Source of the DNA: Vicingaceae bacterium
Lineage (GTDB): Bacteria; Bacteroidota; Bacteroidia; Flavobacteriales_E; Vicingaceae
Assembly (NCBI GenBank): GCA_018402765.1
Contig: JAGYIE010000005.1
Span: 17,082-81,081 of the forward strand
DNA length: 64,000 nucleotides
Direction: 5' to 3'
Shown: piece by piece, positions 1,310-22,095 of the stretch
Position numbering within the stretch: the first letter of the stretch is position 1
Layout: every line of letters starts with the position of its first letter
The notes under the pieces: model-generated
Databases searched by the model: none
Told to the model about the DNA's origin: nothing
What the model saw: the letters and a program-made list of their open reading frames with translations, nothing else
Translations under genes and position numbers: made by a program

Positions 1310-1314
1310 CTTTA

Positions 1315-2052: not shown

Positions 2053-2057
2053 AGTGT

Positions 2058-5774: not shown

Positions 5775-5776
5775 AT

Positions 5777-7999: not shown

Positions 8000-8694
8000 T
8001 AGTATTTCTTTTTAATTGGAGGGACTTCTAAACTGCTTCCTTTTTTTAATCGTCTGAAAGAACTTAGATTATTTACTTCAGCCAGTTTAAGATAGTATTT
8101 TTTGTTATGGTAATACTTTTCGCTAAGGCTAACTATAGAATCACCTTCTTTTACAATTGGCAATTTGGTTATATCAGGACTTTGAAAAAGTTTTTGTCCA
8201 TCAAATTCTAGTTCTACTACCGTAATAGAAACTTCTGCGCGTAGCGGAACTCCATCCGAATTAAAAAAAGTATAAGTGTAATTAAAGCCTTCCACACTCC
8301 CAAAAACATTAAGTGTCCCCATTCCCCAATTTATCATTACAAAAGGAGGTCTGTGAGTAGAATCTACGGGTATTACAGTTAATTTTTCTAGCTTGGAAAT
8401 AGAAGACGATACAGAACCCATATCAGCTGCAGATACACCATCTGGTTCAAATGGTATAGCACCTGTATTATCTATAGTAAATTTAAATTGAACCCTTCTT
8501 CTAACAAAGGTAATAGCTCTACTAGTAATGGATGAGCCTTCTGCATTTACCTCCTCTTCAGCTTCTTGCTCAGTTCTTCCTACTTCAAAAGAAATATCAG
8601 AAGGATTTAATTGCAAAGTGTAGCTACCCAACTCTCCCATTGATCCGCCGCTGTCTGATTCATATCCTGTAATTTCTAAGCTATTTATATTCAT
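7999..8694 (-). CDS. CIS tube-initiator/hub protein with C-terminal LysM-like domain (Afp7-like)
   Basis: LQLNPSDI; HRPPFVMINWG; FFNSDGVPLRAEV; C-terminal VKEGDSIVSLSEKYY...LAEVNNL. Confidence 0.88.
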   Translation of the reverse strand: MNINSLEITGYESDSGGSMGELGSYTLQLNPSDISFEVGRTEQEAEEEVNAEGSSITSRAITFVRRRVQFKFTIDNTGAIPFEPDGVSAADMGSVSSSISKLEKLTVIPVDSTHRPPFVMINWGMGTLNVFGSVEGFNYTYTFFNSDGVPLRAEVSITVVELEFDGQKLFQSPDITKLPIVKEGDSIVSLSEKYYHNKKYYLKLAEVNNLSSFRRLKKGSSLEVPPIKKKY

Positions 8695-8696
8695 AA

Positions 8697-8903
8697 TTAG
8701 TAGCTTAGTTTATCGTTTAATCTGGATAATACTTCGTTCACACATTCAGTAATAAGTGCTCTTTTTTCAGATTCACTTAAGCCTACTTTGGATTTATTTA
8801 CTTTGGAATTTGCTTCAATTAATTTAATAATATCTTCTTCACTTGCGCTACTATTACCATTTACTTTTCCTTTAATCACCAATTCTTTTATTACTACAGC
8901 CAT
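8697..8903 (-). CDS. DUF5908-like small eCIS protein (Afp6-like)
   Basis: MAVVIKELVIKGKV...LITECVNEVLSRL; size and position between tube 2 and LysM protein. Confidence 0.8.
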   Translation of the reverse strand: MAVVIKELVIKGKVNGNSSASEEDIIKLIEANSKVNKSKVGLSESEKRALITECVNEVLSRLNDKLSY

Positions 8904-8917
8904 AATCTAAAAGATGT

Positions 8918-9436
8918 CTAATTATTAAAATATTGATTAAAATGGGTGTAAGTAAGTTTCAAACGTTCCACTGCAATTTCAGACTTATCAGCATTAAATG
9001 CACCTATTTCTAATCCTTTTGGGTAGCAATTAAAAAACGACCAAGCCATTATTATTTGTTCTTGGTTATTTTCATTATTCTCCATTAAAAACACGTTTAC
9101 AGTTTTTAATGTTACTTGATAGCTAAATGAGTCGTTGGTTAATAAGTCATTAACCCATGTTGCCATGGGTGATTCTCTTTTTATTAACCCTCTAGAAAGC
9201 ACTAAGTCTGAATAGGTTGTAGTTCCTGGTAAGTGATATTGTCTGTTATTGCTGCCAGCATCTGTTATAGCGCTCGTATTTAGGTCTGCACTTATCCCTG
9301 AAATAGATTGGAAAAATGATTCATCAGGATCAAAGAAGATACTAGATAGTGGCCCATCTAAACCTACTAGTTGGTTAGTCGATGTTACCTTAAACTTAAA
9401 ACCCAATGCTGGGTAATCATTTTTATCGATATTCAT
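8918..9436 (-). CDS. Phage tail tube gp19-like protein 2 (Afp5-like)
   Basis: YPALGFKFKV...FQSISGIS...YSDLVLSRGL...AWSFFNCYPK...AVERLKLTY; ATG at 9436 preferred over track TTG at 9445. Confidence 0.9.
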   Translation of the reverse strand: MNIDKNDYPALGFKFKVTSTNQLVGLDGPLSSIFFDPDESFFQSISGISADLNTSAITDAGSNNRQYHLPGTTTYSDLVLSRGLIKRESPMATWVNDLLTNDSFSYQVTLKTVNVFLMENNENNQEQIIMAWSFFNCYPKGLEIGAFNADKSEIAVERLKLTYTHFNQYFNN

Positions 9437-9489
9437 AGATAGCAATAATTTTCAACTACTATAGAAGTGTTGAGAATAATAGTAGTAGT

Positions 9490-9539
9490 AAAAAAACAAT
9501 TATCCACTGTATCATTGTAAATGCTACAGCGAATAATTG
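9490..9539 (-). terminator. Intrinsic terminator after the major tube gene
   Basis: mRNA CAAUUAUUCGCUGUAgCAUU-uac-AAUGaUACAGUGGAUAAUUG-UUUUUUU: 19 bp (2 G.U, 1 mismatch), triloop, U7 tail. Confidence 0.75.
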
Positions 9540-9560
9540 CTATCTTAATGAGTGTTTAAT

Positions 9561-10031
9561 TTATGCTACTTCTGAGGTCATTCCTTCATGAGCTAGGACC
9601 ATTGTTTCGATTCCTGCTTCTGATGATTGAGAATTCATATCAGTTGGTGTAACTTTTTGTGGAAAAGCATTTGTTAGGGTCCACGTCATTCTTGGAGTAG
9701 CTGTTTCGTCTAATAAACGAATAACTACTGTCAAACGCTCATAAGTGTTTAATGAAATTTTTGAAATCCAATCAAAGAATTGGTTATCATCAGCAAATAC
9801 CCCTTTTTTAAGAGTTACATCCCCGTATTTCATTAATCCGGGCATCTTAATGGGTGTATGATTAGGACTATTTCCGTGTCTGTATTCGATTACTTCAGTT
9901 TCTACATCTAATCCACTAACTTCCTGAAAAGGTAAGTCTGTAAAATCGCCAATATCTACTGAAAAATAAAACTTTGGTAAAGGCCAAAACTGATCTTGTT
10001 CTGCACCTGTTCCTGCTGTTGGTAATGCCAT
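9561..10031 (-). CDS. Major tail tube protein, gp19 family (Afp1-like)
   Basis: WPLPKFYFSV...FQEVSGLDVETEVIEYRHG...KMPGLMKYGDVTLKKG. Confidence 0.95.
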   Translation of the reverse strand: MALPTAGTGAEQDQFWPLPKFYFSVDIGDFTDLPFQEVSGLDVETEVIEYRHGNSPNHTPIKMPGLMKYGDVTLKKGVFADDNQFFDWISKISLNTYERLTVVIRLLDETATPRMTWTLTNAFPQKVTPTDMNSQSSEAGIETMVLAHEGMTSEVA

Positions 10032-10065
10032 TTTTATCTAGTTTTTTTGATTTATATAGGAGAAG

Positions 10066-11568
10066 TTATGATTTTTGTTGCTGTTGTTCAAACGTAATTA
10101 CGATGAATTCAGCAGGTCTTGTAATCGCTACTTTAACTGTCATTTTTAAAACGCCATCTAATATATCGTTTGCTGTCATAGTAGAACCAAGTCCAATTTG
10201 AATTTCATAAGCATCATCAGGAGAGTTTCCTGCTAATAAACCTGATTGCCATTGGTTACTTAAGAAATTAGCCACTGTAGCTCTTAGTGTGGACCAAGTA
10301 GTAGAGTTATTAGGAGCAAAAACAAATGCCTCTGCAGCAAATTTGATACTTTGCTCAAGGAATGTCATTGTTCTTCTTACGCTAATGTATCGATAATCTT
10401 GAGAATTTCCGTCTAGTGTTCTTGCACCCCATACCAAAACTCCTTTACCTGCGAAGCCTCTAATAGCATTAATTGCTTTACCATTTAATGGTAAGTTAAG
10501 TTCCTCTTGGTTGTCGTTATTGATATCTACTGAAGGCGATACAACTGCTCCTAAGCTGATGTTAGCCGGAGATTTCGCTACACTTACAGAGTTGTCGCAC
10601 ATGGTATAGGCACCTGCCAATGCAGCACTCGGAGGCATTAAATTAATCATGCTCCCCATATCCTCTATAATTGCATTTATCGCAGGGCTCACTACCTTAA
10701 GAGTAGATTGAAGAGATTTAATTGCATCTGCATCAGTTATGTCTGCTATCTTGGCAATTTCTTTTTTAATTCCTTCAGCTCTTGCTTCAGTAATTACACC
10801 ATTAGCCAGGTTCTTGTCTACTTCTGTATTTAAAACCTCAATCAATACCTCTTTATTATCGATTCGTGTAAAATCTAAATCAGCAGATTTTACAATGTTA
10901 GTCTGTATGTATGGGTAATAAGCAGCTCCCCACATTAGAAAGTTAGAACCTACGCCTTCTCTAAATTTATCAACGATATCATCTTCATCAAAGGTACGCT
11001 CTTTATCACCATCATAAACATCTAGTATAGCAAAACGATTCTTCATTTTATAACCACAATGACTTAACATTTGTGCCTGAACAGCGAAGCAATCGTCAGC
11101 TGAAAGTAAAACTGCATCAGGAACTACCAAAAGCGTAGGCTCTAGTGATTTCTCTAAGGCTGCTATACCACCATTGTTTTTACTGGTTAATTGATCCCCA
11201 TTAATTTCCTCTCCGTATAAGCCTACAGAAACGATATAGCAATCGGCTCCACCATTTGCGTAAAATAAACGAATCGAATTAAAGAGCATGTATCTGCTAG
11301 CATCCAAGAAACTCAGTTGAAATCCTTGAGCACTTGCTTCGTTTGCTTCGATAATAAATTTTGTATCCGGGGCACCACCGAATAATTCTACAAATTGACC
11401 AAAGGAAGTAACTTTTGTAGGTTTGTTGATTAATGATTTTGACCCTCTCGCAGCTTTGGCCGTATAACCTACAAATGCAGGCAAGGCTGTTTGCACGGGT
11501 ACCACTGTTGAACCGAAGGAACTTTTTTCTTCGATATACACACCGGGAGTCGCTAATGAAGTAGACAT
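10066..11568 (-). CDS. Contractile tail sheath protein (Afp2/3/4-like)
   Basis: TPGVYIEE...TALPAFVGYT; VWGARTLDGNSQDYRYISVRRT; RPAEFIVITF. Confidence 0.96.
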   Translation of the reverse strand: MSTSLATPGVYIEEKSSFGSTVVPVQTALPAFVGYTAKAARGSKSLINKPTKVTSFGQFVELFGGAPDTKFIIEANEASAQGFQLSFLDASRYMLFNSIRLFYANGGADCYIVSVGLYGEEINGDQLTSKNNGGIAALEKSLEPTLLVVPDAVLLSADDCFAVQAQMLSHCGYKMKNRFAILDVYDGDKERTFDEDDIVDKFREGVGSNFLMWGAAYYPYIQTNIVKSADLDFTRIDNKEVLIEVLNTEVDKNLANGVITEARAEGIKKEIAKIADITDADAIKSLQSTLKVVSPAINAIIEDMGSMINLMPPSAALAGAYTMCDNSVSVAKSPANISLGAVVSPSVDINNDNQEELNLPLNGKAINAIRGFAGKGVLVWGARTLDGNSQDYRYISVRRTMTFLEQSIKFAAEAFVFAPNNSTTWSTLRATVANFLSNQWQSGLLAGNSPDDAYEIQIGLGSTMTANDILDGVLKMTVKVAITRPAEFIVITFEQQQQKS

Positions 11569-11710
11569 ATGATTAAAATTAGTAATTTACTTAAAAAAGA
11601 TTGACTAAGCCAAATTAAGGAATAATGATCTTTATTACCTATTTTTTTTATTAACAACTGATTGATTAATTGTTAATTAAAAAGTTTATTTTGTATTTTG
11701 TACTTGATTT

Positions 11711-12544
11711 TTAAATATTTATATAAATATCCGTTATGAATGTATCGTGAATATTGCTGAAACTTAAATTATTAATTGATGGCTGAGGAATATATTTTTT
11801 ATAATTATGAAAGGTTTGATCTTTCTTTTTTAGGTAGTATTTGAAGTCTTGCTGTTCTTTTACCATTATTGTGTTGGGTGAAATAGCAGCATAGACGTTT
11901 TTACCATTTGACAATATCCTTTTTTGAAAAGAAACCTCTATCGCCTTTTTCCCTTCTTCTTCTATTACGTAATCAGCGATTTCTTTTTCGTCTTGAATAT
12001 TGGTAAGATTATAACGAACTATTGATTGCCTTGCTTTGAACCTAATGGAATAGTTTACGGATTCCTTGAGCCTTTTGTCAATTAACTCTCCAAAAAACTC
12101 GTTATTCTTGTTTAGGTTCAATGTTATCTTGCCTATTATACCTTTCCCAAAATACGCATCTGTTTCACAATCTTTATCGGTATAATCTTTAGAGTGAAGA
12201 TTGGTGTTTGAAAAATCGTTTGTAAATAACAATCTTTTATCTGTACTGTAAGTTATATCTGTGTAATTTAAGAAATAGATATCGTCTACAAATAGGTAGA
12301 AATCTAGCTGCACTTCATTGTTAAAGCTAGCACTATTACAGCGCTCTATATTGTCACCTAATAAAACAATACCTGCAGGAATAGCTTTAATTTTTAGTTG
12401 ATAATCTTTTAGTAGTTCCGCAGTTTCCATTGATGGTATTATTCGTATTTTTTCTATAATCCCACTTGTGAAGTAATTGTGATATACAGTAACGGATATT
12501 AACTGGCGGTGATTACTACTATATTTAAAACTATTTTGAAGCAT
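11711..12544 (-). CDS. Hypothetical eCIS-associated protein next to the cap gene (possible cap adaptor)
   Basis: 277 aa; LISVTVYHNYF start; between DUF4255 and sheath; function inferred from position only. Confidence 0.6.
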   Translation of the reverse strand: MLQNSFKYSSNHRQLISVTVYHNYFTSGIIEKIRIIPSMETAELLKDYQLKIKAIPAGIVLLGDNIERCNSASFNNEVQLDFYLFVDDIYFLNYTDITYSTDKRLLFTNDFSNTNLHSKDYTDKDCETDAYFGKGIIGKITLNLNKNNEFFGELIDKRLKESVNYSIRFKARQSIVRYNLTNIQDEKEIADYVIEEEGKKAIEVSFQKRILSNGKNVYAAISPNTIMVKEQQDFKYYLKKKDQTFHNYKKYIPQPSINNLSFSNIHDTFITDIYINI

Positions 12545-12555
12545 AATTTTATCTA

Positions 12556-13092
12556 TTAACCTATTACCAATGCTATATCTTCACTAAAGGTAGTCGAATT
12601 GAAATAAATTTGTTTGAATTTATAAGCTACTGAAGGTATATAGTTTGCTCCAATATTCCCCCATAGTTTACTAATTTCTTCAATAGAAATATTTAACATT
12701 TCTGCATTTATCTTATTCACTCCTGAAGGCATGCCTGGTGTATTTGAACTCGTAAATGTATTGTTCGCCTGAAAAAATTCGATTACAATAGAGATGTATT
12801 TCAATGCCTCTAAATAATTGAAGTTTGGGAAATGGGCGGAAAACATTAAGTGCAGGTTTACTTTAACTGTTGGGTTTAATCCTGCATTCGCATTAAAATT
12901 TGCATTCTTTGAAACCTTTTCTTCTTCAATGTTTAATAAGAATATTGTAATTTTGTTTTCAATTTCTTGATTTAAATTACCTTTTAAATCTACTAAGCTG
13001 CTAACAATTACTGCATCTTCATTTAGTGAAAGCTTGTTTTTTATGTGCTCGTTTAGTTTATTACCGATTGATGTAATTACGTTATGAATCAT
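12556..13092 (-). CDS. DUF4255 cap/tail-terminator protein (Afp16/Pvc16-like)
   Basis: VIVSSLVD...ITIFLLNIEEE...LHLMFSAHF...YLEALKYIS.VIEFFQ...ISKLWGNIGANYIPSVAYK. Confidence 0.88.
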   Translation of the reverse strand: MIHNVITSIGNKLNEHIKNKLSLNEDAVIVSSLVDLKGNLNQEIENKITIFLLNIEEEKVSKNANFNANAGLNPTVKVNLHLMFSAHFPNFNYLEALKYISIVIEFFQANNTFTSSNTPGMPSGVNKINAEMLNISIEEISKLWGNIGANYIPSVAYKFKQIYFNSTTFSEDIALVIG

Positions 13093-13103
13093 TGGTGATT
13101 ATT

Positions 13104-13337
13104 TTAATTCATTAATTTGAATATGCCTTTCACTATTATTCTTACTATGTAAATAGATATAAGTGAAATTAACCAACTTATAGTATAAAGTTGAATTGTT
13201 AATATTTTTTCTATTTCATTCGGCCGGTTAGTCGCAGATGTTAAGTTAATCATCCATAAAACCACGAATGCAATAACTAATGAAAGTAGAACACTAATTA
13301 CAAACCAAAAAAGCTCTCTGATAATTATCTTTTTCAT
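13104..13337 (-). CDS. Small two-TM membrane protein
   Basis: 77 aa with two hydrophobic stretches; 10-11 nt gaps to neighbours in the same operon. Confidence 0.7.
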   Translation of the reverse strand: MKKIIIRELFWFVISVLLSLVIAFVVLWMINLTSATNRPNEIEKILTIQLYTISWLISLISIYIVRIIVKGIFKLMN

Positions 13338-13347
13338 AAGTAGTTTT

Positions 13348-15120
13348 TCAAGGTCTATCGATTGATTTTAATTTTATTTTTTGGATCAAAAATAGAACGA
13401 GCATTCCAATTGTAAATGCGATATAAATTTGCCACTCTGGTTTTATAAATAGGTGTATATATGGCAATATATTATTAAGCCCAATATATGCAAATCCTGT
13501 TAGTGGTAGAATAAAAATAATAGATACTAATAAAAAGATCCATTGATAAAGTTGTTTTTTTAGTATTGAATCTCTAATTTTCCAGTCAGTTAGTAAGTAT
13601 GTAAATCCAATGACTACAGCAATTAAAAAACATACGGTAGCTGCCATAAATAGGTTTAAATATTTGAGTAAAAATTTGCTCCATTGTAAAGGATATCCTT
13701 CAGCTTCTGCAAGAGGGTTTTTATAGATTTTAATATTGGTGGAGAACTTATTTTCGATCACATCCCATAAGTCAGTAGAGCCATTATCATAACCCAAGGC
13801 CCATATTCCAATTCCTTTTAGCTTGTTACTTATAGCATAATCATACTTTTTGTCTAAAGTGTATGCATCGTCAAACCATATTTCTTTGGTAGAGTTATCG
13901 GTGTAGGTTAGGTTATAGTAGTTAGTCATGCTATATTCATCTAAAATCGGCACGGTATTATATTCTTTGTTATCAAGTAGTAATTTTTTTACTTCGCTGT
14001 AGGTAATTCTGCGTTCTAGCTTTGACGCATTGTAGGCAGACATTCCATCTTCAGTTAATTCTCCATCCCACATAGAGCCATAGTAGGGCAGAGCTAATAC
14101 TGTTTTGTCTAGATTAATTCCTCTATCTATATAAAAGTTTAGCGTGGTTGATAGGCTAATATCTGATTCTTTAGATCGTAATGGAGCTACAGGGCCCTGT
14201 ACTTGATTTCCAGTATTGTAATCGTATCCCATTATAACCAATAAGTCGGCAGATTTTTCAAGTTCATTGATGTCAAAAATATCTCTGCTATTTACAGCCG
14301 GTAGTGTAAGTGACAAAAAGAATGACTTACCTTCTTTTTCATAAACAGCGGACAGCTGTTGATTGATGAAAGCTACAAATTGATTAAACTTTTCTCTTTT
14401 AAAATAGGAGATTGATTCAAAGTTAAGATCTATACCGTTCGCCTCTCTATTGATCAATAACGGAGTAAGTATTTCTGCTAGGGTGCTCCATCTCTCTGGG
14501 TTATCTAAAAAAATAGAGGTATTTTCTGAACCATGACAAGCTACAGTTAGCAATACTTTAGTATTGTGTGCTTTAGCTGAGTCTATCATTTCAGTGGTCT
14601 TCCATTCTTCTATCTGTTTTGGGTTTGTAAATGAGCCAGTTTTTGGGTCTATTTTATAAGAAAAGTAGGCAACTGTTGTTAATAAATTAAAAGGATACTT
14701 CCTCCATGAATCGCCCATCCAATAGGGGTGCCATCCAAACACTTCGGTTCCTTTTTGTATTGCTTTATAGGTTTTATCCTGCACTCGGTAAGCTGATTCA
14801 CTAGAGTCAAAGCTGAAATTTGTGCTTGAAATTGGTGCATCTCCTGTATTTAATGCATCATAAATATATCCGTATTTGTTTAACATACTTTTTTGAGATC
14901 TTGGAGCATATATAGAGGAGTCTACATTTGCTGTATCTTTAAGTGTGTTAAGTTTATCCAACCCAAATCCTTTCTCAATTTTACTTATAGTACTTTTAAA
15001 TAGTCTGGTTTCCGTCTCTGTTTTTCTGATACTACTTTTAAGTTTTACTGCCTCCCTGCACGATATAAGCAGCAATACAATAGATAGCATGAAAATTAGA
15101 AAGTGAACTTTTTTACTCAT
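13348..15120 (-). CDS. GH18 family glycoside hydrolase with lipoprotein-like N-terminus and C-terminal TM helices
   Basis: VFGWHPYW; ANGIDLNFE; VIMGYDY; VLALPYYG; KYDYA.SNKLKGIGIWALGYD; lipobox LLISC; about three hydrophobic helices at the C-terminus. Confidence 0.88.
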   Translation of the reverse strand: MSKKVHFLIFMLSIVLLLISCREAVKLKSSIRKTETETRLFKSTISKIEKGFGLDKLNTLKDTANVDSSIYAPRSQKSMLNKYGYIYDALNTGDAPISSTNFSFDSSESAYRVQDKTYKAIQKGTEVFGWHPYWMGDSWRKYPFNLLTTVAYFSYKIDPKTGSFTNPKQIEEWKTTEMIDSAKAHNTKVLLTVACHGSENTSIFLDNPERWSTLAEILTPLLINREANGIDLNFESISYFKREKFNQFVAFINQQLSAVYEKEGKSFFLSLTLPAVNSRDIFDINELEKSADLLVIMGYDYNTGNQVQGPVAPLRSKESDISLSTTLNFYIDRGINLDKTVLALPYYGSMWDGELTEDGMSAYNASKLERRITYSEVKKLLLDNKEYNTVPILDEYSMTNYYNLTYTDNSTKEIWFDDAYTLDKKYDYAISNKLKGIGIWALGYDNGSTDLWDVIENKFSTNIKIYKNPLAEAEGYPLQWSKFLLKYLNLFMAATVCFLIAVVIGFTYLLTDWKIRDSILKKQLYQWIFLLVSIIFILPLTGFAYIGLNNILPYIHLFIKPEWQIYIAFTIGMLVLFLIQKIKLKSIDRP

Positions 15121-16402
15121 TTTTTTTTAATTGAATTTTTATCGACTTATTGATAATTGGCACTAATTTTTCCACCATTTTATTTGTTTCAACAGTGCTA
15201 ACTGTTACTAGTCTATAGTGAATGGGAAAATCATAAATGGTCGATTTATTTATCAGCCTTACTTCCGCTTTTTTACTCGGTCTTGCTATTAATTCGTCCG
15301 ATTTGTAAAAAGCAAAGTTTCTATTGAAATGCGCCGTTCTAGCATCTAAACTTTGGTTAAGAATGGAAATGGATAAATCATTACCAATATAGGTTGGCAG
15401 AGTGAAGCTTGGTTTAGTTTCAAAGAGCTCTTCTTTGGCATACGTAATTAACGCTTCTCCATCATCATTTGCATAGCTATCATACATTTCTTTTTCGGTA
15501 CTAGAAGTTCCAAACCAGTATCCCCAACCTAATAAACGATCTGTAGATGAGATAACTATTGGAAAAGTGAACGAACTATTTTGTGTAATATTTAGAATAG
15601 GTTCTAGTCTAAAAGCTTTAGTGTCTTCTATTTTGTAAATGGTATCCGTTATTACTTCATTCACCATTTTTTTTACAAAAGTGGTGTCATTTATAAATTC
15701 AGTAGATGTTCCTTTATGGGTTATAGGTTTTTTAATAATTAGTGTAAAATTAGAAGCAAAAACACCTTTGTTTCTTAACAATCCTGAATTAGAAATATTC
15801 AAGATTAGCTTATTGTCAGTCATTACCCTAAAAGCGCCATCTACTTTCTTCTTGCGTTTAATCTTCATTAGGCGTATTCTTACGGTTTCTCCCTCAATAA
15901 ATTCAATTGTTTTGATCTTATGCTTACCATTTTGCATATTAAAAATAATTTCATCACCTGCTATTACGTCATATGTAAAAGTGGTAACACTGCCATCAGT
16001 TGGTGTCTTTATATTTAAGTAAGAAATGACTACCGTATCAATTGTTTTATTTTGCACTAAATAATCAAGTAGAAAAGTTTCGGATTCATCTATTTTAACT
16101 TCTTTTTCTGTTTTTAAAATATTCCTGAGGCTATCTATGTAAGTTACCGAGTAAAGAGTCTCAATACTTGATTCATTATTAAGGGATTTCTTTTTTACTA
16201 AAAGTTGTTTAGTCTCTTTGTTTAGGTTATTTATGGAGTTTGATACATCTTTTGCGACCAGTTCTTTGTTTAGATTATTAATAGTTGTTTTATTAGAATT
16301 TACCAGCTTTGTAAGATCTGTTACTACTTTAGATGATTTACAACCAAATAGAAATATCAAAAGGAACAAAAATACAGTACTATTTACTTTTTTGGTTATC
16401 AT
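15113..16402 (-). CDS. Hypothetical lipoprotein
   Basis: 429 aa; lipobox FIFLFGC; N-terminal coiled-coil-like stretch; no family recognised. Confidence 0.7.
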   Translation of the reverse strand: MITKKVNSTVFLFLLIFLFGCKSSKVVTDLTKLVNSNKTTINNLNKELVAKDVSNSINNLNKETKQLLVKKKSLNNESSIETLYSVTYIDSLRNILKTEKEVKIDESETFLLDYLVQNKTIDTVVISYLNIKTPTDGSVTTFTYDVIAGDEIIFNMQNGKHKIKTIEFIEGETVRIRLMKIKRKKKVDGAFRVMTDNKLILNISNSGLLRNKGVFASNFTLIIKKPITHKGTSTEFINDTTFVKKMVNEVITDTIYKIEDTKAFRLEPILNITQNSSFTFPIVISSTDRLLGWGYWFGTSSTEKEMYDSYANDDGEALITYAKEELFETKPSFTLPTYIGNDLSISILNQSLDARTAHFNRNFAFYKSDELIARPSKKAEVRLINKSTIYDFPIHYRLVTVSTVETNKMVEKLVPIINKSIKIQLKKNE

Positions 16403-17512
16403 TTAATGTGTTGATTTAGCGTTTACTTCCTTTTGCATTCTTTCATATCTGGCATAAGCTTCTTTTTTAAGTGTCTGTTTGATTTCTGAAGTTTTACTTT
16501 CTAGTTCCATTTCCAAAGAAGCTTCTTTTAGCTTACTATTTTTGATTCGTTCATAATCGAAGTTATCTTTTGCTTTTTGCAAATTCATTTCATAAATTAA
16601 TTCGCTTTCTTCCAGTAGGCTTTCATAGGGACCTTTTGAAGAAAGTAATTTGGTAAGAATAGGAGCTATTTCAATCATTATAAAAATAGAAAGAATAAGT
16701 AAAGAGGCTAGTTTATCAATTTGATTAAGTGCTTTAATTCGATCAAAAAAACCTGACTTAAATTCTTGTGACATCGTTAGTAATTCGGCGTTCATAAGCG
16801 CCTCAGTATTAATTTGCTCATTGCTTAGTGCGTTAAGTAAGGAGTCTGTTTGCACTTTTTGTGTTTGAACCTCTGCTGCATACGTCTCGTATTTCTCTTG
16901 CCTGCTCTCACATTCCGACCCTCTGCCTTTCCTTCCTGTTCCGCAAGTTCCATCACATTCACACTTGAAGTCACTGTAATACGCATCTCGAATAACTATT
17001 TTATCTTCTAACTTTTTTATTAATAAATCTTTACGATTTGTTAGGTCATCAATTTTATAGGAGTATTTTATTTTTACATCGTCTACTAATGTTATTCGTT
17101 CCTTTTCTAAGTATGTATTAATTTCATTTTTGAATAGTTTTATTTCTATTGGTTTAGAAATTACTAATGCAATTAATACTGCAATTATCAATCGAGGAAT
17201 CGCCTTTAAAAATTCTCCCTTTTTACTATTGACTGACCGCAGAGTAGAAACAATATAACGATCTAAGTTAAAAATCATACCGGCCCAAATTAATGATGCT
17301 CCTATTACGATAATTAATGAATCAAATATTAGTGAAAAGGCGAAAAATGCTGATAGAGAGGATAATAGTGTAGTGAAAACGATGGTAAGACCGATACTAC
17401 TATATTTATTAAGCTCGTATTGCGGACATTTAAGAATCATTTTGACACTTACGCCCGAGCAGAATAATAAAAATCGAGTAATTTTAGATAAATTATTTAC
17501 TTCTTCAATCAT
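16403..17512 (-). CDS. DUF4407 family membrane protein
   Basis: FLLFCSG...KCPQYELNKYSSIG.TIVFT; LDRYIVS; PRLIIAVLIALVISKPIEIKLF; Cys cluster CECDGTCGTGRKG.GSEC. Confidence 0.8.
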   Translation of the reverse strand: MIEEVNNLSKITRFLLFCSGVSVKMILKCPQYELNKYSSIGLTIVFTTLLSSLSAFFAFSLIFDSLIIVIGASLIWAGMIFNLDRYIVSTLRSVNSKKGEFLKAIPRLIIAVLIALVISKPIEIKLFKNEINTYLEKERITLVDDVKIKYSYKIDDLTNRKDLLIKKLEDKIVIRDAYYSDFKCECDGTCGTGRKGRGSECESRQEKYETYAAEVQTQKVQTDSLLNALSNEQINTEALMNAELLTMSQEFKSGFFDRIKALNQIDKLASLLILSIFIMIEIAPILTKLLSSKGPYESLLEESELIYEMNLQKAKDNFDYERIKNSKLKEASLEMELESKTSEIKQTLKKEAYARYERMQKEVNAKSTH

Positions 17513-18569
17513 TCTTATAAATTGTATTGGTTACACTTCTATAAAAATTTTTAAAAAGAGTACGCACATTGTTAGCCCTTTCTGAAGCAGATTTTAGTTC
17601 TTCTTTTTTTCTAATTTCCGCTATGTTTTCGAAAGTGAAAAGAGTTATTGCATGAGCAGTTTTTGCAACTAGTGTAGTAAATTCAAAGGAAAATTCAGTG
17701 TCTTCGGTAGCTATAAAATCGTGCTTACCCCTCGATGGGAGTGTGCCTAATGTCTGTTCGACTAACTTTCCTGCAGATTCAGACTCCCATTTGATACGCA
17801 CTTGTTGGTTTAAGTAAACTCCAAATTTCAGGTTTTGCTCATTTACAGACGATAGCTCAATATAATCTTCTAAAATTGGATCATAAACTTCTACTAAAAA
17901 GAGAATGGTGTTTTCAGAAAATACTTTTATAAATAATGAGCGTCTGACCTCTGCGTTGCTGTTTTTAGCTATTATTAGATAATGCTGGCTTTTGTTAAGC
18001 GCAACAATTTTGCTGCCTGAAATATCCACTTCGCCTAACTCAGGAGAAATACTCACTGAATGGGCATTGGCAGCTTTCCAATTAATTTTCACTTTTTCGC
18101 CTCTGTTTATAAATGGTTTATCAACAGTGAAATCAAGATTTATTTCGCCTGAGAAGAGACTTATCTTTTCAGATTTCTTTAAAAGTCGATTAAACAAATC
18201 AACTTTAGAGCGTATTCGTGTCTCTTTTGATTCCGCCTTATTTTCTGTTTCAGCGCTAATTAAATATCCATTGTCTAGTACACAAAATGATTGCTCGACT
18301 TCATTATTGTTAGACTGATTGAGCCAATAAATAACCACACCACTATCAATTAATCGTTTGATAAGATTTGCTATTTTTATTGATTTTTTATCTGAATTTG
18401 AGCATATTATAATTTCTATTTGACAGTCTTTATTGGCTAGAGCTAACAATTTTGTCGCCAAAAAAAGCAAGTCGGTTTCTTCTGTACAAAGCTTTAAGGA
18501 ATATGCTACACGTCCTATTTCTTTCTCTATTTCGGTTGCTATATGTTGTGTATAATAGGTTCTTAACAT
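17505..18569 (-). CDS. Degenerate PLD-like domain plus two Ig-like repeats
   Basis: N-terminus resembles PLDc_2 with VEQSFCVLD where MHNKFCVID is expected; repeats GEKVKINWKAANAHSVSISPELGEVDISGS and NQQVRIKWESESAGKLVEQTLGTLPSRGK. Confidence 0.55.
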   Translation of the reverse strand: MLRTYYTQHIATEIEKEIGRVAYSLKLCTEETDLLFLATKLLALANKDCQIEIIICSNSDKKSIKIANLIKRLIDSGVVIYWLNQSNNNEVEQSFCVLDNGYLISAETENKAESKETRIRSKVDLFNRLLKKSEKISLFSGEINLDFTVDKPFINRGEKVKINWKAANAHSVSISPELGEVDISGSKIVALNKSQHYLIIAKNSNAEVRRSLFIKVFSENTILFLVEVYDPILEDYIELSSVNEQNLKFGVYLNQQVRIKWESESAGKLVEQTLGTLPSRGKHDFIATEDTEFSFEFTTLVAKTAHAITLFTFENIAEIRKKEELKSASERANNVRTLFKNFYRSVTNTIYKND

Positions 18570-18593
18570 AAAGGTTTTGAATAGTAGTTGTTT

Positions 18594-18749
18594 ATGTTAC
18601 TAAAATAGTATGAATTCAGCCTCAAGCCTACAGGACTTTCAAAATGTTATAAACATCAATTGTTTATAAAGCTGTTTCGCTTTATTTACAAAATAGTTCA
18701 ATTTTAGTTATTCCATTTTAAATACGCCTCTAGTAATGTTGAAAACATC
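18594..18749. promoter_or_regulatory. Three copies of a palindromic ATGTT-N3-AACAT motif in the divergent intergenic region
   Basis: 18594 ATGTTactAAAAT, 18644 ATGTTataAACAT, 18736 ATGTTgaaAACAT. Confidence 0.45.
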
Positions 18750-18785
18750 TTGTAACCACATATAAAATTGCACACTATAATTTTA

Positions 18786-18793
18786 TAAATTTG
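18786..18793 (+). promoter_or_regulatory. Bacteroidota -7 promoter element for the nSTAND-PAAR unit
   Basis: TAAATTTG matches TAnnTTTG, 37 nt before the TTG start; no clear -33. Confidence 0.5.
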
Positions 18794-18830
18794 AGGATTA
18801 ACATCCTGTGCTTTTAAAGCTGTCATTAAT

Positions 18831-21695
18831 TTGTATAAATTGAGTAATAACCATAAATCAAATATTCCTTTTGTTGGGCTTCAGCCTTTTAGTTTAGAAG
18901 ACCATCAGTATTTTTATGGGCGAGAGAGAGAAGTAGAATCGATACTCTCTATTCTACAATCCAATAAATTTGTATGCATAACAGGTCCTGAGGGCTCAGG
19001 TAAAAGTTCATTAATTAATGCTGGTTTATTGCACCGTTTGCAAACAGGCTTTAATGGTATAGAAGGCAATAAGTGGTCCGTTTGTAAATTTAGACCTAGT
19101 ATTTCTCCACTTGAAAATTTTACACAGGCACTAACATTTGATGGGGTATTATCAGTTGAAAATAAGCCTAATACCACAGATTACTTAACCTATTTTGAAA
19201 TTATAAAAGAGGTCGGTGCTGATGCTTTGATGACGATATATAATGATTCCGAAATAGTTAAGAAGCACAATTTATTGGTAGTTATTGATCAGATAGAAGA
19301 TATTTTTTACATGAATGATTACTTTAGTTCTTTTAGTTCTAAAGATGATGATATTCTATTTGATATCGTAAACAAAACTGCTCGGATAAAGAACATCCCC
19401 ATTTACTTCATACTATCTATTCGCACTAACTATTTAAGTAGTCTTTCTCAGTACAATGGATTACAGGAACTTATAAGCAGGTCGCAATACGCTATTCAAA
19501 ACATAAGTTTAGTAAGTGTCAACCAAATGATTGTTGAGGGTTTTAATTCAGTGAATGTCCAGTTTAGTAATTTGTTAGTAGAATCTCTTTATGAAGAGCT
19601 TCTAGAAGATACCTCTCTATTGTCAAACCTTCAGTTTCTTTTGTATTCTTTGTATATGCATCACTTAGCCTTAAAAAGCAGTCAGCAGGTTATAATCCAT
19701 GATTTTGATAATTATACATCCTTAAAAGAGGTGGTGAGTTTTTCATTTTTTGATTTCTTTGAATCTTTAGAAGATTCCGAGAAAGAGAAGTTAGAGTTGC
19801 TAATTCGAGCATTTTTCAACTCTAAAAATCAATTAAATACCAATTATAGAATATCGATTAATGATTTAGTAAAAATATCTGGTTTAGATATTATTTACAT
19901 AAAACAAATTTATTCTACTTTACGATTAGATTTTCAATCATTATTTAATGCTATCCCTGCTATTTCTACTCAGATTGATACTAATGGTAATGATTTTAAA
20001 TGGAAAGGTTCAGATTTGTTACAAATTAGCTATGTTTCTTATTTTTCTCACCCAACCTTTCAAAATTGGGTGCGGAATGAAGCTACTTACTATTGGCGTT
20101 TTAAGGAATATGCCAATTCGTTAAAAAAATATAAAAATGGAGAAATTGGTTTACTCACTTCGCCTCAGTTAGATATTGCAGTAGAGTGGAAGAACAACAA
20201 GTATATTTCTTCTGGTTGGTCTTCGAAATATAATTTACCCTTTTCTGATGTGGTTGACTTTATACTTGAAAGTAAGGCTAAACAGGAGAAAGACGCAGCT
20301 CATGCAGCTGCAAGGCAAGCAAGAGAGCGCATCAAAGAAAAAATTCAACGGCGACTTTATATTAGCTTTACCATTATAGCTTTCTCTCTAATGCTTTTTG
20401 CTGGCTATAAATGGATCGATGCCGACAGATCTAAAGAAGAGGCCAATATGGATAAATTAATTGCACAAGATCTCATGAGAGAGAATCAGATTATTAGTCA
20501 ATTAATAAAGATTAAAGCACAAGCTCCTTCTATGTTAGTGCAATTAAAAAATACTGGCAACGATACAAGTCAATTAAAAATCAATAGGCAAATACAAGAA
20601 GTAGTTAGAACGGAGTTATTGTTTGATAGTCTAAATTCTGTTTATAAAACTTCTTATGTTACAGATGATTGGATGCACGACTTGAATCAAACTGCACTGT
20701 CTCTTCTAGAAGGCAAAAAAGATTACACAGAAACGTCTATGCTTATAGGTGATCTAAAAACGTATCCTATTTTGGATTTTAGTTTATTTAATAATCAGCT
20801 AATCGCATTTATTGGAGAAGATAATAAATTGTTTATAAAAGATTTAAAAAGGAATAAACAAGCACAACTAATTAATCACTCTACTTTATTTAAAGGCCAA
20901 ATAAAACGATTAATTTTTATGGATATAGAGCATGTTTTAATCCTAACAGATCGTCATGAACTATTGATTTTATCGCTTATCACGCAGAATATACAAAGTG
21001 TTTATACCACTACGAAGGCTTCTCCTATAATTGATCTTATATACAATAAAGTAGAAGATGTTATTGTTATTGTAGAAGAAGATAAAATTAAGCTTTATGA
21101 TAGTTACAGTAATCTGCAAGTTATTGATGAATTAGGAGAACATTATACCGCTAGTTATCTTAATCAAAAATTATATGTTGCTACTAATAAGGGAATTTTC
21201 CAAGTAAATACTCAAGAAGGCATTAAGAAGGTGAATTTTGAAAAAGAGAAAAATTACAATTTTGATGGATTAACTAAACTACACTTAAAAGGAGATTATG
21301 CTTTTATTGGGTTTGATAACGGACGAGTAGAAATGTATAAGTTTAACCACGAGCAACTGGTATTAAAACATATATTCTTTTTTAATGAGCACTTTGACGC
21401 TATTACGAGTATATATTATGACGAAGTAAAAGAAGTGATGTATTCTTCAGGGATCGATAATAAAATTTTTAGATATGATTTAAGGATTAATGATGAAGAC
21501 GTAGATGAGAATTTTTCAGAGCTTAAGGGCCATAAAGGTACCGTTTGGAAAATTGATGGTTTTCAAAATACCAGAGGTCAACGAATTTTGGTTACTGCAG
21601 ATCAAACAGGCCACTTATTAACATGGTATATTGACGACATAGATATGGTAAAAGATCTTAAGGAATTAGTAGATAAACAACTTGAAAATAAATAG
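18831..21695 (+). CDS. nSTAND1-type NTPase + TM helix + WD40-like beta-propeller (Hat/HatR-like architecture)
   Basis: PFVGLQPF, FYGRERE, Walker A GPEGSGKSS, Walker B LLVVIDQIEDIF, LLTSPQLDIAVEW; TM LYISFTIIAFSLMLFAGY; WD-like EHFDAITSIYY and KGHKGTVWKID. Confidence 0.85.
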   Translation: MYKLSNNHKSNIPFVGLQPFSLEDHQYFYGREREVESILSILQSNKFVCITGPEGSGKSSLINAGLLHRLQTGFNGIEGNKWSVCKFRPSISPLENFTQALTFDGVLSVENKPNTTDYLTYFEIIKEVGADALMTIYNDSEIVKKHNLLVVIDQIEDIFYMNDYFSSFSSKDDDILFDIVNKTARIKNIPIYFILSIRTNYLSSLSQYNGLQELISRSQYAIQNISLVSVNQMIVEGFNSVNVQFSNLLVESLYEELLEDTSLLSNLQFLLYSLYMHHLALKSSQQVIIHDFDNYTSLKEVVSFSFFDFFESLEDSEKEKLELLIRAFFNSKNQLNTNYRISINDLVKISGLDIIYIKQIYSTLRLDFQSLFNAIPAISTQIDTNGNDFKWKGSDLLQISYVSYFSHPTFQNWVRNEATYYWRFKEYANSLKKYKNGEIGLLTSPQLDIAVEWKNNKYISSGWSSKYNLPFSDVVDFILESKAKQEKDAAHAAARQARERIKEKIQRRLYISFTIIAFSLMLFAGYKWIDADRSKEEANMDKLIAQDLMRENQIISQLIKIKAQAPSMLVQLKNTGNDTSQLKINRQIQEVVRTELLFDSLNSVYKTSYVTDDWMHDLNQTALSLLEGKKDYTETSMLIGDLKTYPILDFSLFNNQLIAFIGEDNKLFIKDLKRNKQAQLINHSTLFKGQIKRLIFMDIEHVLILTDRHELLILSLITQNIQSVYTTTKASPIIDLIYNKVEDVIVIVEEDKIKLYDSYSNLQVIDELGEHYTASYLNQKLYVATNKGIFQVNTQEGIKKVNFEKEKNYNFDGLTKLHLKGDYAFIGFDNGRVEMYKFNHEQLVLKHIFFFNEHFDAITSIYYDEVKEVMYSSGIDNKIFRYDLRINDEDVDENFSELKGHKGTVWKIDGFQNTRGQRILVTADQTGHLLTWYIDDIDMVKDLKELVDKQLENK

Positions 21696-21700
21696 CAGTT

Positions 21701-22093
21701 ATGGCAAATTGTGTTTGTAATGGAGCAAAGATATCCTGCAACTTTGGAGATGGTCCTCAAAGTATGGTGGTGCTTCCACTTGGGATGACGACTACTGCTA
21801 ATATAAAGGCATTAGCTGTTAATACAGATATTATCCCCTTTTTAAATATACCTAGTTTTGGTCAATGTAAATCACTAGCTAATCCAATGGTAGCATCTGC
21901 TACCGCCGCTGCACTAGGAGCGCTTACTCCTCAACCTTGTATTCCAGTTGTGATAGCTCCATGGAATCCTGCTGCACAAAAATTAAAAATTGGAAAAATA
22001 CCTGCAATTTTAGACAACAGCCAAACAATGTGTGCTTGGGCAGGTCAGATAAAGATAGATGATCCCGGACAATCTTCTATCACTGCAGTTTAA
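21701..22093 (+). CDS. DUF4280 PAAR-like spike-tip protein
   Basis: VCNGAKISCNFG...NIPSFGQCKSLANP.VASATAAALG.LTPQPCIP...CAWAGQIKI.DPGQ. Confidence 0.92.
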   Translation: MANCVCNGAKISCNFGDGPQSMVVLPLGMTTTANIKALAVNTDIIPFLNIPSFGQCKSLANPMVASATAAALGALTPQPCIPVVIAPWNPAAQKLKIGKIPAILDNSQTMCAWAGQIKIDDPGQSSITAV

Positions 22094-22095
22094 TT

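What the first reader, a model, noticed from the sequence alone, without database searches (positions are those of the whole stretch)
18831..21695. Effector-less nSTAND1-TM-beta-propeller: an NLR-like membrane sensor linked to a CIS
Seen: intact Walker A/B, helical region, coiled coil, one TM helix, then WD40-like blades; the protein starts directly at the NTPase with no TIR, caspase or nuclease domain. Established: STAND NTPases oligomerise on ligand sensing and usually activate a fused effector. Inference: a periplasmic propeller senses envelope damage or contact and signals through the cytoplasmic NTPase to CIS assembly or firing, or to the membrane module. That would join NLR-like sensing to a contractile weapon.
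Basis: partly seen in the sequence, partly recalled or inferred. Interest (0 to 1): 0.8.

Follow-up and report, generated by a model that had tools for sequence, protein, structure and literature searches.

The report
Membrane-spanning NLR-like switch tied to nano-syringe
A 954-residue ATPase switch related to animal and plant immune receptors spans the inner membrane with its sensor propeller in the periplasm, and this branch of its family always sits beside one lineage of phage-tail-like injection machines, which makes it a testable candidate for how such machines are docked or triggered.

Summary
ORF 18831-21695 (+) encodes an nSTAND1 NTPase (Pfam E 2e-43) with intact Walker A and B motifs. 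It has one conserved TM helix, a periplasmic helical stalk and a 7-bladed propeller. There is no room for an N-terminal effector, and the genome holds no TIR or DUF4062 gene.

Five nt downstream lies the genome's only PAAR-like spike-tip gene (DUF4280). Upstream, transcribed divergently, lie a five-gene envelope module and a clade-Ib contractile injection system (CIS) whose sheath is closest to SalCIS.

The link to the CIS is real:
- All 31 reference-genome loci with a full-length relative carry genes of this locus.
- Three different gene arrangements occur, and two of them place the gene inside the structural operon.
- All CIS-linked proteins form one clade (support 100).
- In a 401-genome class sample, 5 of 5 CIS loci with an adjacent DUF4407 gene have the STAND gene nearby, against 0 of 54 other CIS-bearing genomes.

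Sister clades have the same architecture without a CIS. They pair it with a TIR/DUF4062 protein and outer-membrane barrels.

My reading is a trans-envelope NLR-like switch whose output is the CIS (docking, assembly or firing). What it senses and what it switches on are inferred, not shown. I found no published description.

The parts
18831..21695 (+). nSTAND1-TM-stalk-propeller gene (954 aa, TTG start)
   Evidence: It is the only nSTAND1 gene in the 3.1-Mb genome.
18867..20225 (+). Cytoplasmic nSTAND1 NTPase with helical/winged-helix region (residues 13-465). Walker A K58, Walker B D153/E156/D157.
   Evidence: Pfam PF20703 E 2e-43. Motifs are conserved in the clade. AF2 pLDDT is mostly 85-94.
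20352..20420 (+). Single transmembrane helix (residues ~508-530), preceded by the K/R-rich helix 471-507
   Evidence: Highest hydropathy in the protein. Conserved in position in 18/18 homologues with positive-inside bias.
20424..20708 (+). Periplasmic helical stalk (residues 532-626). It is 99 aa here and ~180-189 aa in most relatives.
   Evidence: AF2 helices 532-575, 581-604 and 613-626. Stalk length comparison.
20742..21629 (+). Periplasmic 7-bladed beta-propeller (residues 638-933), followed by a C-terminal helix (936-953)
   Evidence: 28 strands in the AF2 model. Foldseek matches to 7-bladed WD40 proteins with TMt 0.65-0.77. Sub-threshold Pfam propeller hits.
21701..22093 (+). DUF4280 (PAAR-like spike tip), 5 nt after the STAND stop. 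It is the only PAAR-like gene in the genome.
   Evidence: Pfam PF14107 E 4e-29. The genome has no PAAR_motif gene and only this DUF4280 gene. The same pairing occurs in L001, L003, L011, L020, L022, L023 and L026.
18570..18830 (.). Divergent intergenic region shared by the STAND-DUF4280 pair and the envelope-module/CIS operon
   Evidence: Gene layout. The sigma-70 consensus scan gave nothing above chance.
17505..18569 (-). p354: cytoplasmic protein with an N-terminal alpha/beta domain, two Ig-like domains and a C-terminal helix. First gene of the divergent operon.
   Evidence: Weak PLDc_2 hit. AF2 pLDDT 82 and tandem-Ig Foldseek hits. Conserved next to the STAND gene in arrangement A.
16403..17512 (-). 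DUF4407 inner-membrane protein (4 TM-like segments)
   Evidence: Pfam E 4e-64. TM scan. It marks the CIS lineage that carries the STAND gene.
15113..16402 (-). p429 lipoprotein (lipobox LFGC)
   Evidence: Conserved in synteny.
13348..15120 (-). GH18-type hydrolase with a lipobox and three C-terminal TM segments (SalCis20-like architecture)
   Evidence: Pfam GH18 E 2e-30. TM scan. SalCis20 description in PMC13266070.
13104..13337 (-). Small 2-TM ORF (~77 aa) between GH18 and the cap gene
   Evidence: Translation. 76-80-aa genes are called at the same place in L001, L003, L008, L009 and L112.
2..13092 (-). CIS structural operon. In order: Pvc16_N cap (12556-13092), p277, sheath (10066-11568), two gp19 tubes (9561-10031, 8918-9445), CIS_tube (7999-8694), VgrG (6188-7999), gp25 (5777-6187), 1238-aa baseplate protein (2058-5774), p245, and the start of a ~918-aa protein. 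It continues outside the window with a 2279-aa tape measure and an AAA+ ATPase.
   Evidence: Pfam. The sheath is closest to the SalCIS sheath 9R9H (E 1e-141), then AlgoCIS and tCIS.

Best explanation
The gene encodes a dedicated accessory of one lineage of clade-Ib contractile injection systems. It is an inner-membrane NLR-like (nSTAND1) switch.

Shown or directly supported:
- The ATP-binding oligomerisation module lies in the cytoplasm.
- A single TM helix and a helical stalk place a 7-bladed propeller in the periplasm.
- The protein has no effector domain.
- It is inherited together with the CIS and its five-gene envelope module.
- It is co-transcribed with the only spike-tip gene in the genome.

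Inferred mechanism:
1. The propeller binds a periplasmic or outer-membrane partner or cue. Sister clades encode an outer-membrane barrel and lipoprotein at this position. Here the candidates are the p429 lipoprotein, the GH18 hydrolase and DUF4407.
2. Binding releases the NTPase for nucleotide-dependent oligomerisation, as in Apaf-1 and other STAND proteins.
3. The resulting cytoplasmic platform at the inner membrane licenses or positions the CIS (baseplate docking, assembly or firing).

In this reading the CIS occupies the output position that a TIR/DUF4062 protein holds in sister clades.
For: Architecture and topology.

NTPase: motifs are intact across the clade.

Linkage to the CIS:
- Synteny is kept at 25-41% identity in 31/31 reference loci and in metagenome contigs.
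- Three arrangements occur: (A) divergent from the envelope module; (B) inserted between the two tube genes; (C) co-directional between baseplate genes and a Plug-domain outer-membrane protein and the tape measure.
- All CIS-linked sequences form one clade (SH-aLRT 100, branch 0.46), and all TIR/OMP-linked ones lie outside it.
- The tree correctly predicted the contexts of P0016 and P0017.
- In 401 sampled genomes of the class, 59 have gp19 tube genes. Five of these have DUF4407 within 10 kb of the tubes, and all five have the STAND gene within ~12 kb. None of the other 54 do. The hypergeometric chance is 1 in about 5 million.
- STAND and sheath distances co-vary (Mantel r 0.86, 0 of 5000 permutations reached it).

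Output logic:
- Sister clades carry a TIR_2+DUF4062 gene overlapping the STAND start, plus outer-membrane barrel genes.
- This genome has no TIR_2, DUF4062 or PAAR_motif gene, and has one CIS locus, one nSTAND1 gene and one DUF4280 gene, all in this locus.
Against: - All of the evidence is comparative or predicted.
- Gene linkage does not tell direction or kind of coupling.
- The propeller and stalk are the least conserved parts (17-27% identity where the sheath is 65-75%). That fits a fast-evolving sensor, but it equally fits weak constraint.
- No outer-membrane barrel partner is encoded in the window, unlike in sister clades and in arrangement C.
- The closest characterised CIS (SalCIS) is described without any STAND protein, so such a component is not generally required for clade Ib.
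- The Mantel correlation would also arise from shared vertical descent of any two neighbouring genes.
Confidence: 0.5

Rival explanations
1. Regulated structural anchor. The protein is part of the trans-envelope docking complex of a membrane-attached CIS, functionally like the T6SS membrane complex. The NTPase serves only to build a ring-shaped platform under the baseplate, and no external cue is sensed.
For: - TM helix plus a long periplasmic stalk and propeller.
- The gene is embedded in the structural operon in arrangements B and C.
- The sheath is closest to SalCIS, which is reported as membrane-associated with an unresolved anchoring mechanism.
- STAND proteins form rings (established knowledge, e.g. 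the Apaf-1 apoptosome; top fold hits).
Against: - Structural parts of this locus are well conserved (sheath 65-75%, tube 77-88%), whereas this protein is among the fastest evolving.
- Stalk length differs by ~85 aa between subclades, which is odd for a fixed structural spacer.
- In arrangements A and B the gene is on the opposite strand, which argues against fixed stoichiometric co-expression.
- The wider family is associated with signalling-type partners (cNMP-binding proteins, cyclases, PP2C, TIR).
Confidence: 0.2
2. Death or lysis trigger for particle release. As in classical NLR-like systems, activation kills the producer. Here it would act through the envelope module (the GH18 peptidoglycan-type hydrolase, a small 2-TM holin-like protein and DUF4407), releasing extracellular CIS particles.
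For: - STAND systems usually end in cell death (established knowledge). Sister clades carry TIR-family partners.
- The envelope module contains a membrane-anchored GH18 hydrolase and a ~77-aa 2-TM protein.
- GH18-TM paralogues also sit in TIR-linked STAND operons that have no CIS (L103, L104). This ties the hydrolase to the STAND protein rather than to the CIS.
- eCIS particles are thought to be released by lysis on an unknown trigger (PMC13266070).
Against: - SalCis20, which has the same architecture as this GH18, is proposed to remodel the wall for insertion, not to lyse the cell. No release of SalCIS was detected.
- No holin or endolysin family hit was found for the module.
- This model does not explain co-transcription with the spike tip.
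Confidence: 0.15
3. Independent immune gene. It is an anti-phage or anti-attack STAND sensor that merely resides in or near CIS loci, like defence cargo in hotspots of prophages, with an unrecognised effector.
For: - nSTAND1 is defined as a conflict-system NTPase (PMC8195603).
- Insertion on the opposite strand between tube genes (arrangement B) resembles moron-type insertions.
- A cytoplasmic ~300-aa partner gene of unknown function follows it in most relatives.
Against: - Hotspots carry varied cargo. Here the same orthologous clade stays with the same CIS lineage through three different insertion sites and down to ~25% identity.
- 5 of 5 against 0 of 54 co-occurrence.
- No PADLOC family hit beyond P-loop noise.
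- No effector domain, and no TIR or DUF4062 gene in the genome.
- The ~300-aa partner is absent from the window.
Confidence: 0.1

Closest known systems
nSTAND1 conflict-system NTPases (Pfam PF20703; Kaur, Iyer, Burroughs, Aravind, eLife 2021, PMC8195603)
   Same: Clear HMM membership, with Walker A/B and helical domains followed by a repeat sensor.
   Different: There is no fused effector or effector-associated domain. A TM helix splits the NTPase from the sensor, so the sensor is periplasmic. The genomic partner is a contractile injection system rather than TIR, caspase or nuclease domains. The paper does not mention contractile systems.
Apaf-1 / Dark apoptosome proteins
   Same: They are the best structural matches over the whole chain (3shf, 3sfz, 3j2t, 8y6p; E 1e-13 to 2e-17). 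The order of NOD, helical domains and WD40 propeller is the same.
   Different: Sequence identity is only 11-12%. There is no CARD. There is one 7-bladed propeller instead of two. A TM helix and stalk lie between the NOD and the propeller. This is a resemblance in fold and logic, not orthology.
Trans-envelope TIR/DUF4062 + nSTAND1-TM-WD40 + outer-membrane-barrel operons of Bacteroidota
   Same: Same protein architecture and length, and the same single TM position. They are the sister clades in the tree.
   Different: Those operons carry a TIR_2+DUF4062 protein, a HEAT/cNMP-binding membrane protein, outer-membrane barrels or TonB-dependent-receptor-like proteins, cyclases, and giant SprB-type surface proteins. 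They occur in genomes without any gp19 tube gene. The window's clade has lost the TIR partner and is tied to a CIS and the DUF4407/GH18 module.
SalCIS of Salmonella enterica subsp. salamae (Nat Commun 2026, PMC13266070; PDB 9R9H, 9R9A) and other clade-Ib CIS (AlgoCIS 7ADZ, tCIS 7B5H)
   Same: The sheath is full-length homologous (E 1e-141 to 9R9H). A membrane-anchored GH18-type hydrolase like SalCis20 is present, along with a Pvc16-type cap, a tape measure and an AAA+ ATPase.
   Different: No STAND, DUF4407, p354 or p429 component is described for SalCIS. The activation signal and anchoring of SalCIS are stated as unknown.
Threat-sensing control of the Pseudomonas aeruginosa H1-T6SS (TagQRST-PpkA-Fha1; from my own knowledge)
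   Same: Works alike in concept: outer-membrane and periplasmic components report an envelope event across the inner membrane to trigger assembly of a contractile weapon.
   Different: There is no homology. That pathway uses a kinase, an FHA protein and a phosphatase, not a STAND NTPase. This is an analogy only and was not tested here.

Membership tests
nSTAND1 (PF20703) | Profile match above the curated cut-off | tested here: met
   149.9 bits against a cut-off of 27.1, residues 13-346. 152 bits in the genome search.
nSTAND1 (PF20703) | Intact P-loop NTPase motifs (Walker A GxxGxGK[ST], Walker B hhhhD plus acidic residues) | tested here: met
   GPEGSGKS with K58, and LLVVIDQIED with D153/E156/D157. 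Conserved in 25 clade members.
STAND / NLR-like architecture | NOD, then helical/winged-helix domains, then a C-terminal repeat sensor | tested here: met
   AF2 model. Top Foldseek hits are Apaf-1, the apoptosome and Dark.
Classical conflict-system STAND (Avs, bNACHT, nSTAND1 systems) | Fused N-terminal effector or effector-associated domain | tested here: not met
   The NTPase starts at residue 13. An in-frame stop lies 13 codons upstream of the start.
Classical conflict-system STAND (Avs, bNACHT, nSTAND1 systems) | Match to a known defence-system model, or defence-island context | tested here: not met
   PADLOC gave only P-loop-level noise (E >= 1e-4). The neighbours are CIS and envelope genes.
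Classical conflict-system STAND (Avs, bNACHT, nSTAND1 systems) | Protects against phage | not testable with these tools
   Needs plaque assays in a laboratory host.
Trans-envelope nSTAND1-TM-propeller receptors of Bacteroidota (undescribed) | Single TM at ~residue 500 with N-in topology and a periplasmic propeller | tested here: met
   Strong matches running through the TM occur in ~27 of 401 class genomes.
Trans-envelope nSTAND1-TM-propeller receptors of Bacteroidota (undescribed) | TIR_2/DUF4062 partner gene immediately upstream | tested here: not met
   Absent from the locus and from the whole genome. Present in sister clades.
Trans-envelope nSTAND1-TM-propeller receptors of Bacteroidota (undescribed) | Outer-membrane beta-barrel partner gene downstream | tested here: not met
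   DUF4280 follows in the window. A Plug-domain outer-membrane protein follows only in arrangement C relatives.
Accessory component of a clade-Ib CIS lineage | Conserved linkage to CIS genes across divergent genomes and rearrangements | tested here: met
   31/31 reference loci; three arrangements; one clade; 5 of 5 against 0 of 54.
Accessory component of a clade-Ib CIS lineage | Physical or functional interaction with the CIS | not testable with these tools
T6SS membrane complex or TagQRST-PpkA type regulators | Homology to TssJ/L/M, PpkA, Fha or TagQRST | tested here: not met
   No such Pfam family was hit by this protein or its neighbours.

The most novel reading that the evidence does not exclude
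The contractile injection system is the effector arm of an outside-in NLR-like receptor. The periplasmic propeller, held at a set distance from the inner membrane by its stalk, would detect contact or attack at the outer membrane or cell wall. Nucleotide-driven oligomerisation of the cytoplasmic nSTAND1 domain would then nucleate or fire a CIS at that very spot. That would be a bacterial 'return fire' circuit built from immune-receptor parts, and the first case where a STAND protein's output is a macromolecular weapon rather than an enzyme or pore.
Probability: 0.3. Interest if true: 0.9.

Novelty: new variant of a known kind. Interest (0 to 1): 0.72.

Why it matters
Two open questions meet here.

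First, how clade-Ib contractile systems (T6SSiv, SalCIS and relatives) are held at the inner membrane, and what activates them, is unknown. The SalCIS paper says so explicitly (PMC13266070). This gene is a concrete, lineage-specific candidate that can be deleted, mutated in its Walker motifs and looked for in tomograms.

Second, all characterised bacterial STAND/NLR-like proteins sense cytoplasmic ligands and act through a fused or adjacent enzyme. A STAND protein whose sensor is periplasmic and whose conserved partner is a phage-tail-like machine would widen what this receptor class is known to do. The sister clades (TIR/DUF4062 plus outer-membrane barrel) provide a natural comparison set for working out the shared sensing step.

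Tried and rejected
- Sigma-70 promoter and terminator scan of 18400-22400: fewer promoter-like sites than in shuffles, so uninformative. Bacteroidota promoters are also not covered.
- PADLOC: no meaningful hit for the STAND protein, the envelope-module proteins, or the ~300-aa partner found in relatives.
- Sequence search of PDB with the STAND protein: only P-loop noise from UvrA.
- tblastn with the window's proteins is too insensitive for distant contexts. I first suspected, from contig numbers, that L060 (a Chitinophaga MAG) had a tube gene 2 kb away. ORF inspection showed no such gene in the locus, so that was a different contig. L060's context stays unknown although it falls in the CIS clade.
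- I considered that the CIS link might hold for the whole architecture. This is rejected: most strong family members in the class sample lie in genomes with no gp19 tube gene at all.
- I tried to decide whether p354 is a cryptic TIR-like or PLD-like trans-effector. The AF2 model is good, but Foldseek was dominated by the two Ig-like domains, so the N-terminal alpha/beta domain remains unassigned.
- Literature: no paper in the library joins 'contractile injection' with STAND, nSTAND1, NACHT, DUF4407 or WD40 in a relevant way. Subscription-only papers are not covered.
Full report
**Observation.** The ORF at 18831-21695 (+) is real and encodes 954 residues from a TTG start. An in-frame stop lies 13 codons upstream, so there is no room for a hidden N-terminal domain.
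- Pfam places residues 13-346 in nSTAND1 at 149.9 bits, against a cut-off of 27.1. AAA_16 and nSTAND3 give secondary hits.
- Walker A (G52..G55.G57 K58 S59) and Walker B (LLVVI D153 Q I E156 D157) are intact. They are conserved in 25 members of the clade.
- The most hydrophobic stretch is at about 508-530. In all 18 aligned homologues a hydrophobic 19-mer sits at residue ~495-510, although its sequence is not conserved.
- That stretch always has 5-9 Lys/Arg in the 15 residues before it and 1-4 after it. With an ATP-using domain at the N-terminus, this fixes an N-in/C-out topology.

The AF2 model (pLDDT 82) shows five parts: the NTPase and helical domains, a long helix running into the membrane, three periplasmic helices (532-626), 28 strands forming seven blades (638-933), and a terminal helix. 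Foldseek ranks Apaf-1, the apoptosome and Dark first over the whole chain, followed by 7-bladed WD40 proteins. Pfam propeller hits are all below threshold, so the propeller call rests on the model.

**Surroundings.** Five nucleotides after the stop begins a DUF4280 gene, which is PAAR-like (E 4e-29). The genome has no PAAR_motif gene and no other DUF4280 gene. No tip gene lies between vgrG and gp25. The only candidate spike tip is therefore transcribed with the STAND gene.

On the other strand, starting 261 bp upstream, the following genes run in order:
- p354, which is cytoplasmic;
- DUF4407, with four TM-like segments;
- the p429 lipoprotein;
- a GH18 hydrolase with a lipobox and three C-terminal TM segments;
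- a ~77-aa 2-TM ORF;
- the CIS proper: Pvc16-type cap, p277, sheath, two gp19 tubes, CIS_tube, VgrG, gp25 and large baseplate proteins.

The operon continues beyond the window with a 2279-aa tape measure and an AAA+ ATPase. The sheath matches the SalCIS sheath 9R9H over its full length (E 1e-141), then AlgoCIS and tCIS, which places it in eCIS clade Ib. The genome (3.1 Mb, 99.8% complete) has one nSTAND1 gene and one CIS locus, side by side.

**Is the link to the CIS more than adjacency?** Several lines of evidence say yes.
- Close and distant homologues from metagenomes (78% down to ~25% identity) keep the neighbourhood.
- A pattern scan of one genome per species returned 31 loci with a full-length relative. 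They come from Flavobacteriaceae (including Polaribacter and Arcticimaribacter MAGs), Saprospiraceae and other Bacteroidota.
- All 31 carry genes of this locus. 25 of them include sheath, tube or baseplate genes. The rest end at contig borders or show only the envelope module.

Three arrangements exist:
- (A) As in the window, divergent from the envelope module.
- (B) The STAND gene plus a ~300-aa gene inserted on the opposite strand between the two tube genes. These loci have a classical PAAR gene between vgrG and gp25.
- (C) Co-directional inside the structural operon. The order is baseplate genes, STAND, a Plug-domain outer-membrane protein, then the tape measure. It was seen in three genomes of two other families.

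In Saprospiraceae the STAND gene sits beside the envelope module. If contig C3 of G010 is L039's contig (inferred from the record name), the tube genes lie ~25 kb away on the same contig.

**The wider family.**
- A full HMMER scan found 1028 cluster representatives at E<1e-30. Many are ~1000-1050 aa and align through the TM region.
- In an even sample of 401 genomes of the class, about 27 have strong matches of this kind (E<1e-75, 940-1090 aa). Most of those genomes have no gp19 tube gene at all.

I fetched 28 such loci. The non-CIS members sit in a different conserved operon:
- a HEAT/cNMP-binding (TLC-like) membrane protein;
- a TIR_2+DUF4062 protein whose stop overlaps the STAND start;
- the STAND-TM-propeller gene;
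- an outer-membrane beta-barrel or TonB-dependent-receptor-like protein;
- an unknown ~430-aa protein;
- a giant SprB/CUB/PKD surface protein.

Variants of this operon carry GAF-adenylate cyclases or a HAMP-PP2C phosphatase. After I had seen this, the scan's earlier notes turned out to describe the same family repeatedly as an undescribed trans-envelope STAND receptor. Some of those notes report TIR-like partners with lost catalytic residues. I did not test the catalytic residues.

**Phylogeny and statistics.**
- I built a tree from the first 620 residues of 78 sequences. All CIS-linked proteins (A, B, C), the Saprospiraceae group, and two sequences of then-unknown context fall on one side of a branch with SH-aLRT 100 and length 0.46. 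Every TIR- or OMP-linked protein is on the other side.
- The tree predicted the contexts of P0016 (arrangement B) and P0017 (envelope module), and both look-ups agreed.
- In the class sample, 59 genomes have gp19 tubes. In five of them DUF4407 lies within 10 kb of the tubes (G000, G151, G187, G260, G279). All five have the STAND gene within ~12 kb of the tubes. None of the other 54 do. The chance of that split is 1 in C(59,5), about 2e-7.
- Sheath and STAND pairwise distances correlate (Mantel r 0.86; 0 of 5000 permutations reached it). This shows joint inheritance, but any two vertically inherited neighbours would show it too.
- The STAND protein evolves about twice as fast as the sheath (mean p-distance 0.64 against 0.28). 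The NTPase core is its best conserved part (42-51% identity in the Flavobacteriaceae relatives). The propeller and stalk are its worst (17-27%).
- The stalk is 99 aa in the window's subclade and 180-189 aa in most other relatives.

**How it most likely works.**

Shown:
- a membrane-spanning nSTAND1 protein with a cytoplasmic NTPase and a periplasmic propeller;
- no effector domain;
- clade-specific, rearrangement-proof linkage to one CIS lineage and its envelope module;
- co-transcription with the only tip gene.

Inferred from what STAND proteins do (ligand-released, nucleotide-dependent oligomerisation, as in Apaf-1) and from the sister operons:
- The propeller reads a periplasmic or outer-membrane partner or event.
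- The NTPase oligomerises at the inner membrane.
- The oligomer positions or licenses the CIS.

I give this 0.5. Rivals:
- A regulated structural anchor without sensing (0.2).
- A death or lysis trigger that releases particles through the GH18, small 2-TM and DUF4407 module (0.15). It is made more plausible by GH18-TM paralogues in TIR-linked STAND operons without a CIS.
- An unrelated immune gene hitch-hiking in the locus (0.1). It is disfavoured by the constancy of the same orthologue across three insertion sites.

**Comparison with what is known.**
- The protein is a member of nSTAND1 by every sequence criterion. It fails the usual conflict-system features: no fused effector, and no defence-model hit.
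- It resembles Apaf-1 in fold order only.
- The CIS resembles SalCIS, including a SalCis20-like hydrolase. The SalCIS paper describes no STAND component and states that anchoring and activation are unresolved.
- The conceptual parallel to threat-sensing control of the Pseudomonas H1-T6SS is from my own knowledge and involves no homology.
- I found no paper that connects STAND or nSTAND1 proteins with contractile injection systems. The library does not hold most subscription journals.

**Limits.**
- The tree is a quick search, and several branches are long (L093, L038, L060).
- The class sample is 401 genomes, and only five carry the lineage.
- The reference-genome scan depends on one peptide pattern, so its 31 loci are not a census.
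- Contig numbers in the genome search cannot be matched to record names, and this misled me once (L060).

Noticed in passing
L083-L100, L103-L109 (e.g. L083:8218-18177, L086:1-18051): Sister clades of the STAND protein lie in a conserved operon without any CIS. The operon holds a HEAT/cNMP-binding TLC-like membrane protein, a TIR_2+DUF4062 protein overlapping the STAND start, the STAND-TM-propeller gene, an outer-membrane barrel or TonB-dependent-receptor-like protein, an unknown ~430-aa protein, and a giant SprB/CUB/PKD surface protein. Variants carry GAF-adenylate cyclase or HAMP-PP2C genes.
   Followed up: partly
L003:13157-14059, L006:13256-14179, L008:13081-14058, L009:3255-4157, L112:13191-14156: A cytoplasmic ~300-325-aa gene with no Pfam or PADLOC hit follows the STAND gene directly in most Flavobacteriaceae relatives, in both arrangements A and B. 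Its N-terminus has a Rossmann-like look (my impression from the sequence, not tested). It is absent from the window and from its closest relative L001, which also have the short stalk.
   Followed up: partly
window 20424-20708 (residues 532-630): The periplasmic stalk is ~85 residues shorter in the window's subclade (99 aa) than in most other CIS-linked relatives (180-189 aa; 156-173 in L009, L039, L101 and L102). If helical, that is a difference of roughly 12 nm in reach.
   Followed up: partly
L103:14253-16175 and L104:4065-5984: GH18-type proteins of ~640 aa (27-29% identical to the window's GH18) lie close to the STAND gene in loci without a CIS, in the TIR-STAND operon in L103 (no TIR partner was detected in L104). 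The membrane hydrolase may therefore be a partner of the STAND family rather than of the CIS.
   Followed up: no
window 13104-13337 (-): A ~77-aa ORF with two hydrophobic segments lies between GH18 and the cap gene. It is conserved as a 76-80-aa gene at the same place in relatives. Its topology is holin-like, but it has no family hit.
   Followed up: no
window 17505-18569 (-): The AF2 model of p354 (pLDDT 82) shows an N-terminal alpha/beta domain (1-132), two Ig-like domains (144-313) and a 36-residue C-terminal helix. Foldseek matched only tandem-Ig proteins, so the fold class of the N-terminal domain (PLD-like or other) is unresolved.
   Followed up: partly
L082:8813-15652 (-), upstream of the window on the same contig: The tape-measure protein is 2279 aa, with only its last ~380 residues matching CIS_TMP. 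In arrangement C relatives the TMP is ~850 aa. If TMP length sets tube length (established for phage tails, not tested here), this CIS would be very long.
   Followed up: no
L082:1907-7459 (+): An 1850-aa ORF with no Pfam hit lies beyond the AAA+ ATPase gene. It is a candidate cargo or toxin of the CIS.
   Followed up: no
L039:9149-11821 and L060:13152-15926: In a Saprospiraceae MAG and a Chitinophaga MAG, a second, weakly similar ~900-aa STAND-like gene follows the first. L039 combines the CIS-type envelope module with the TonB-like and HEAT/cNMP-like genes typical of the sister clades.
   Followed up: no
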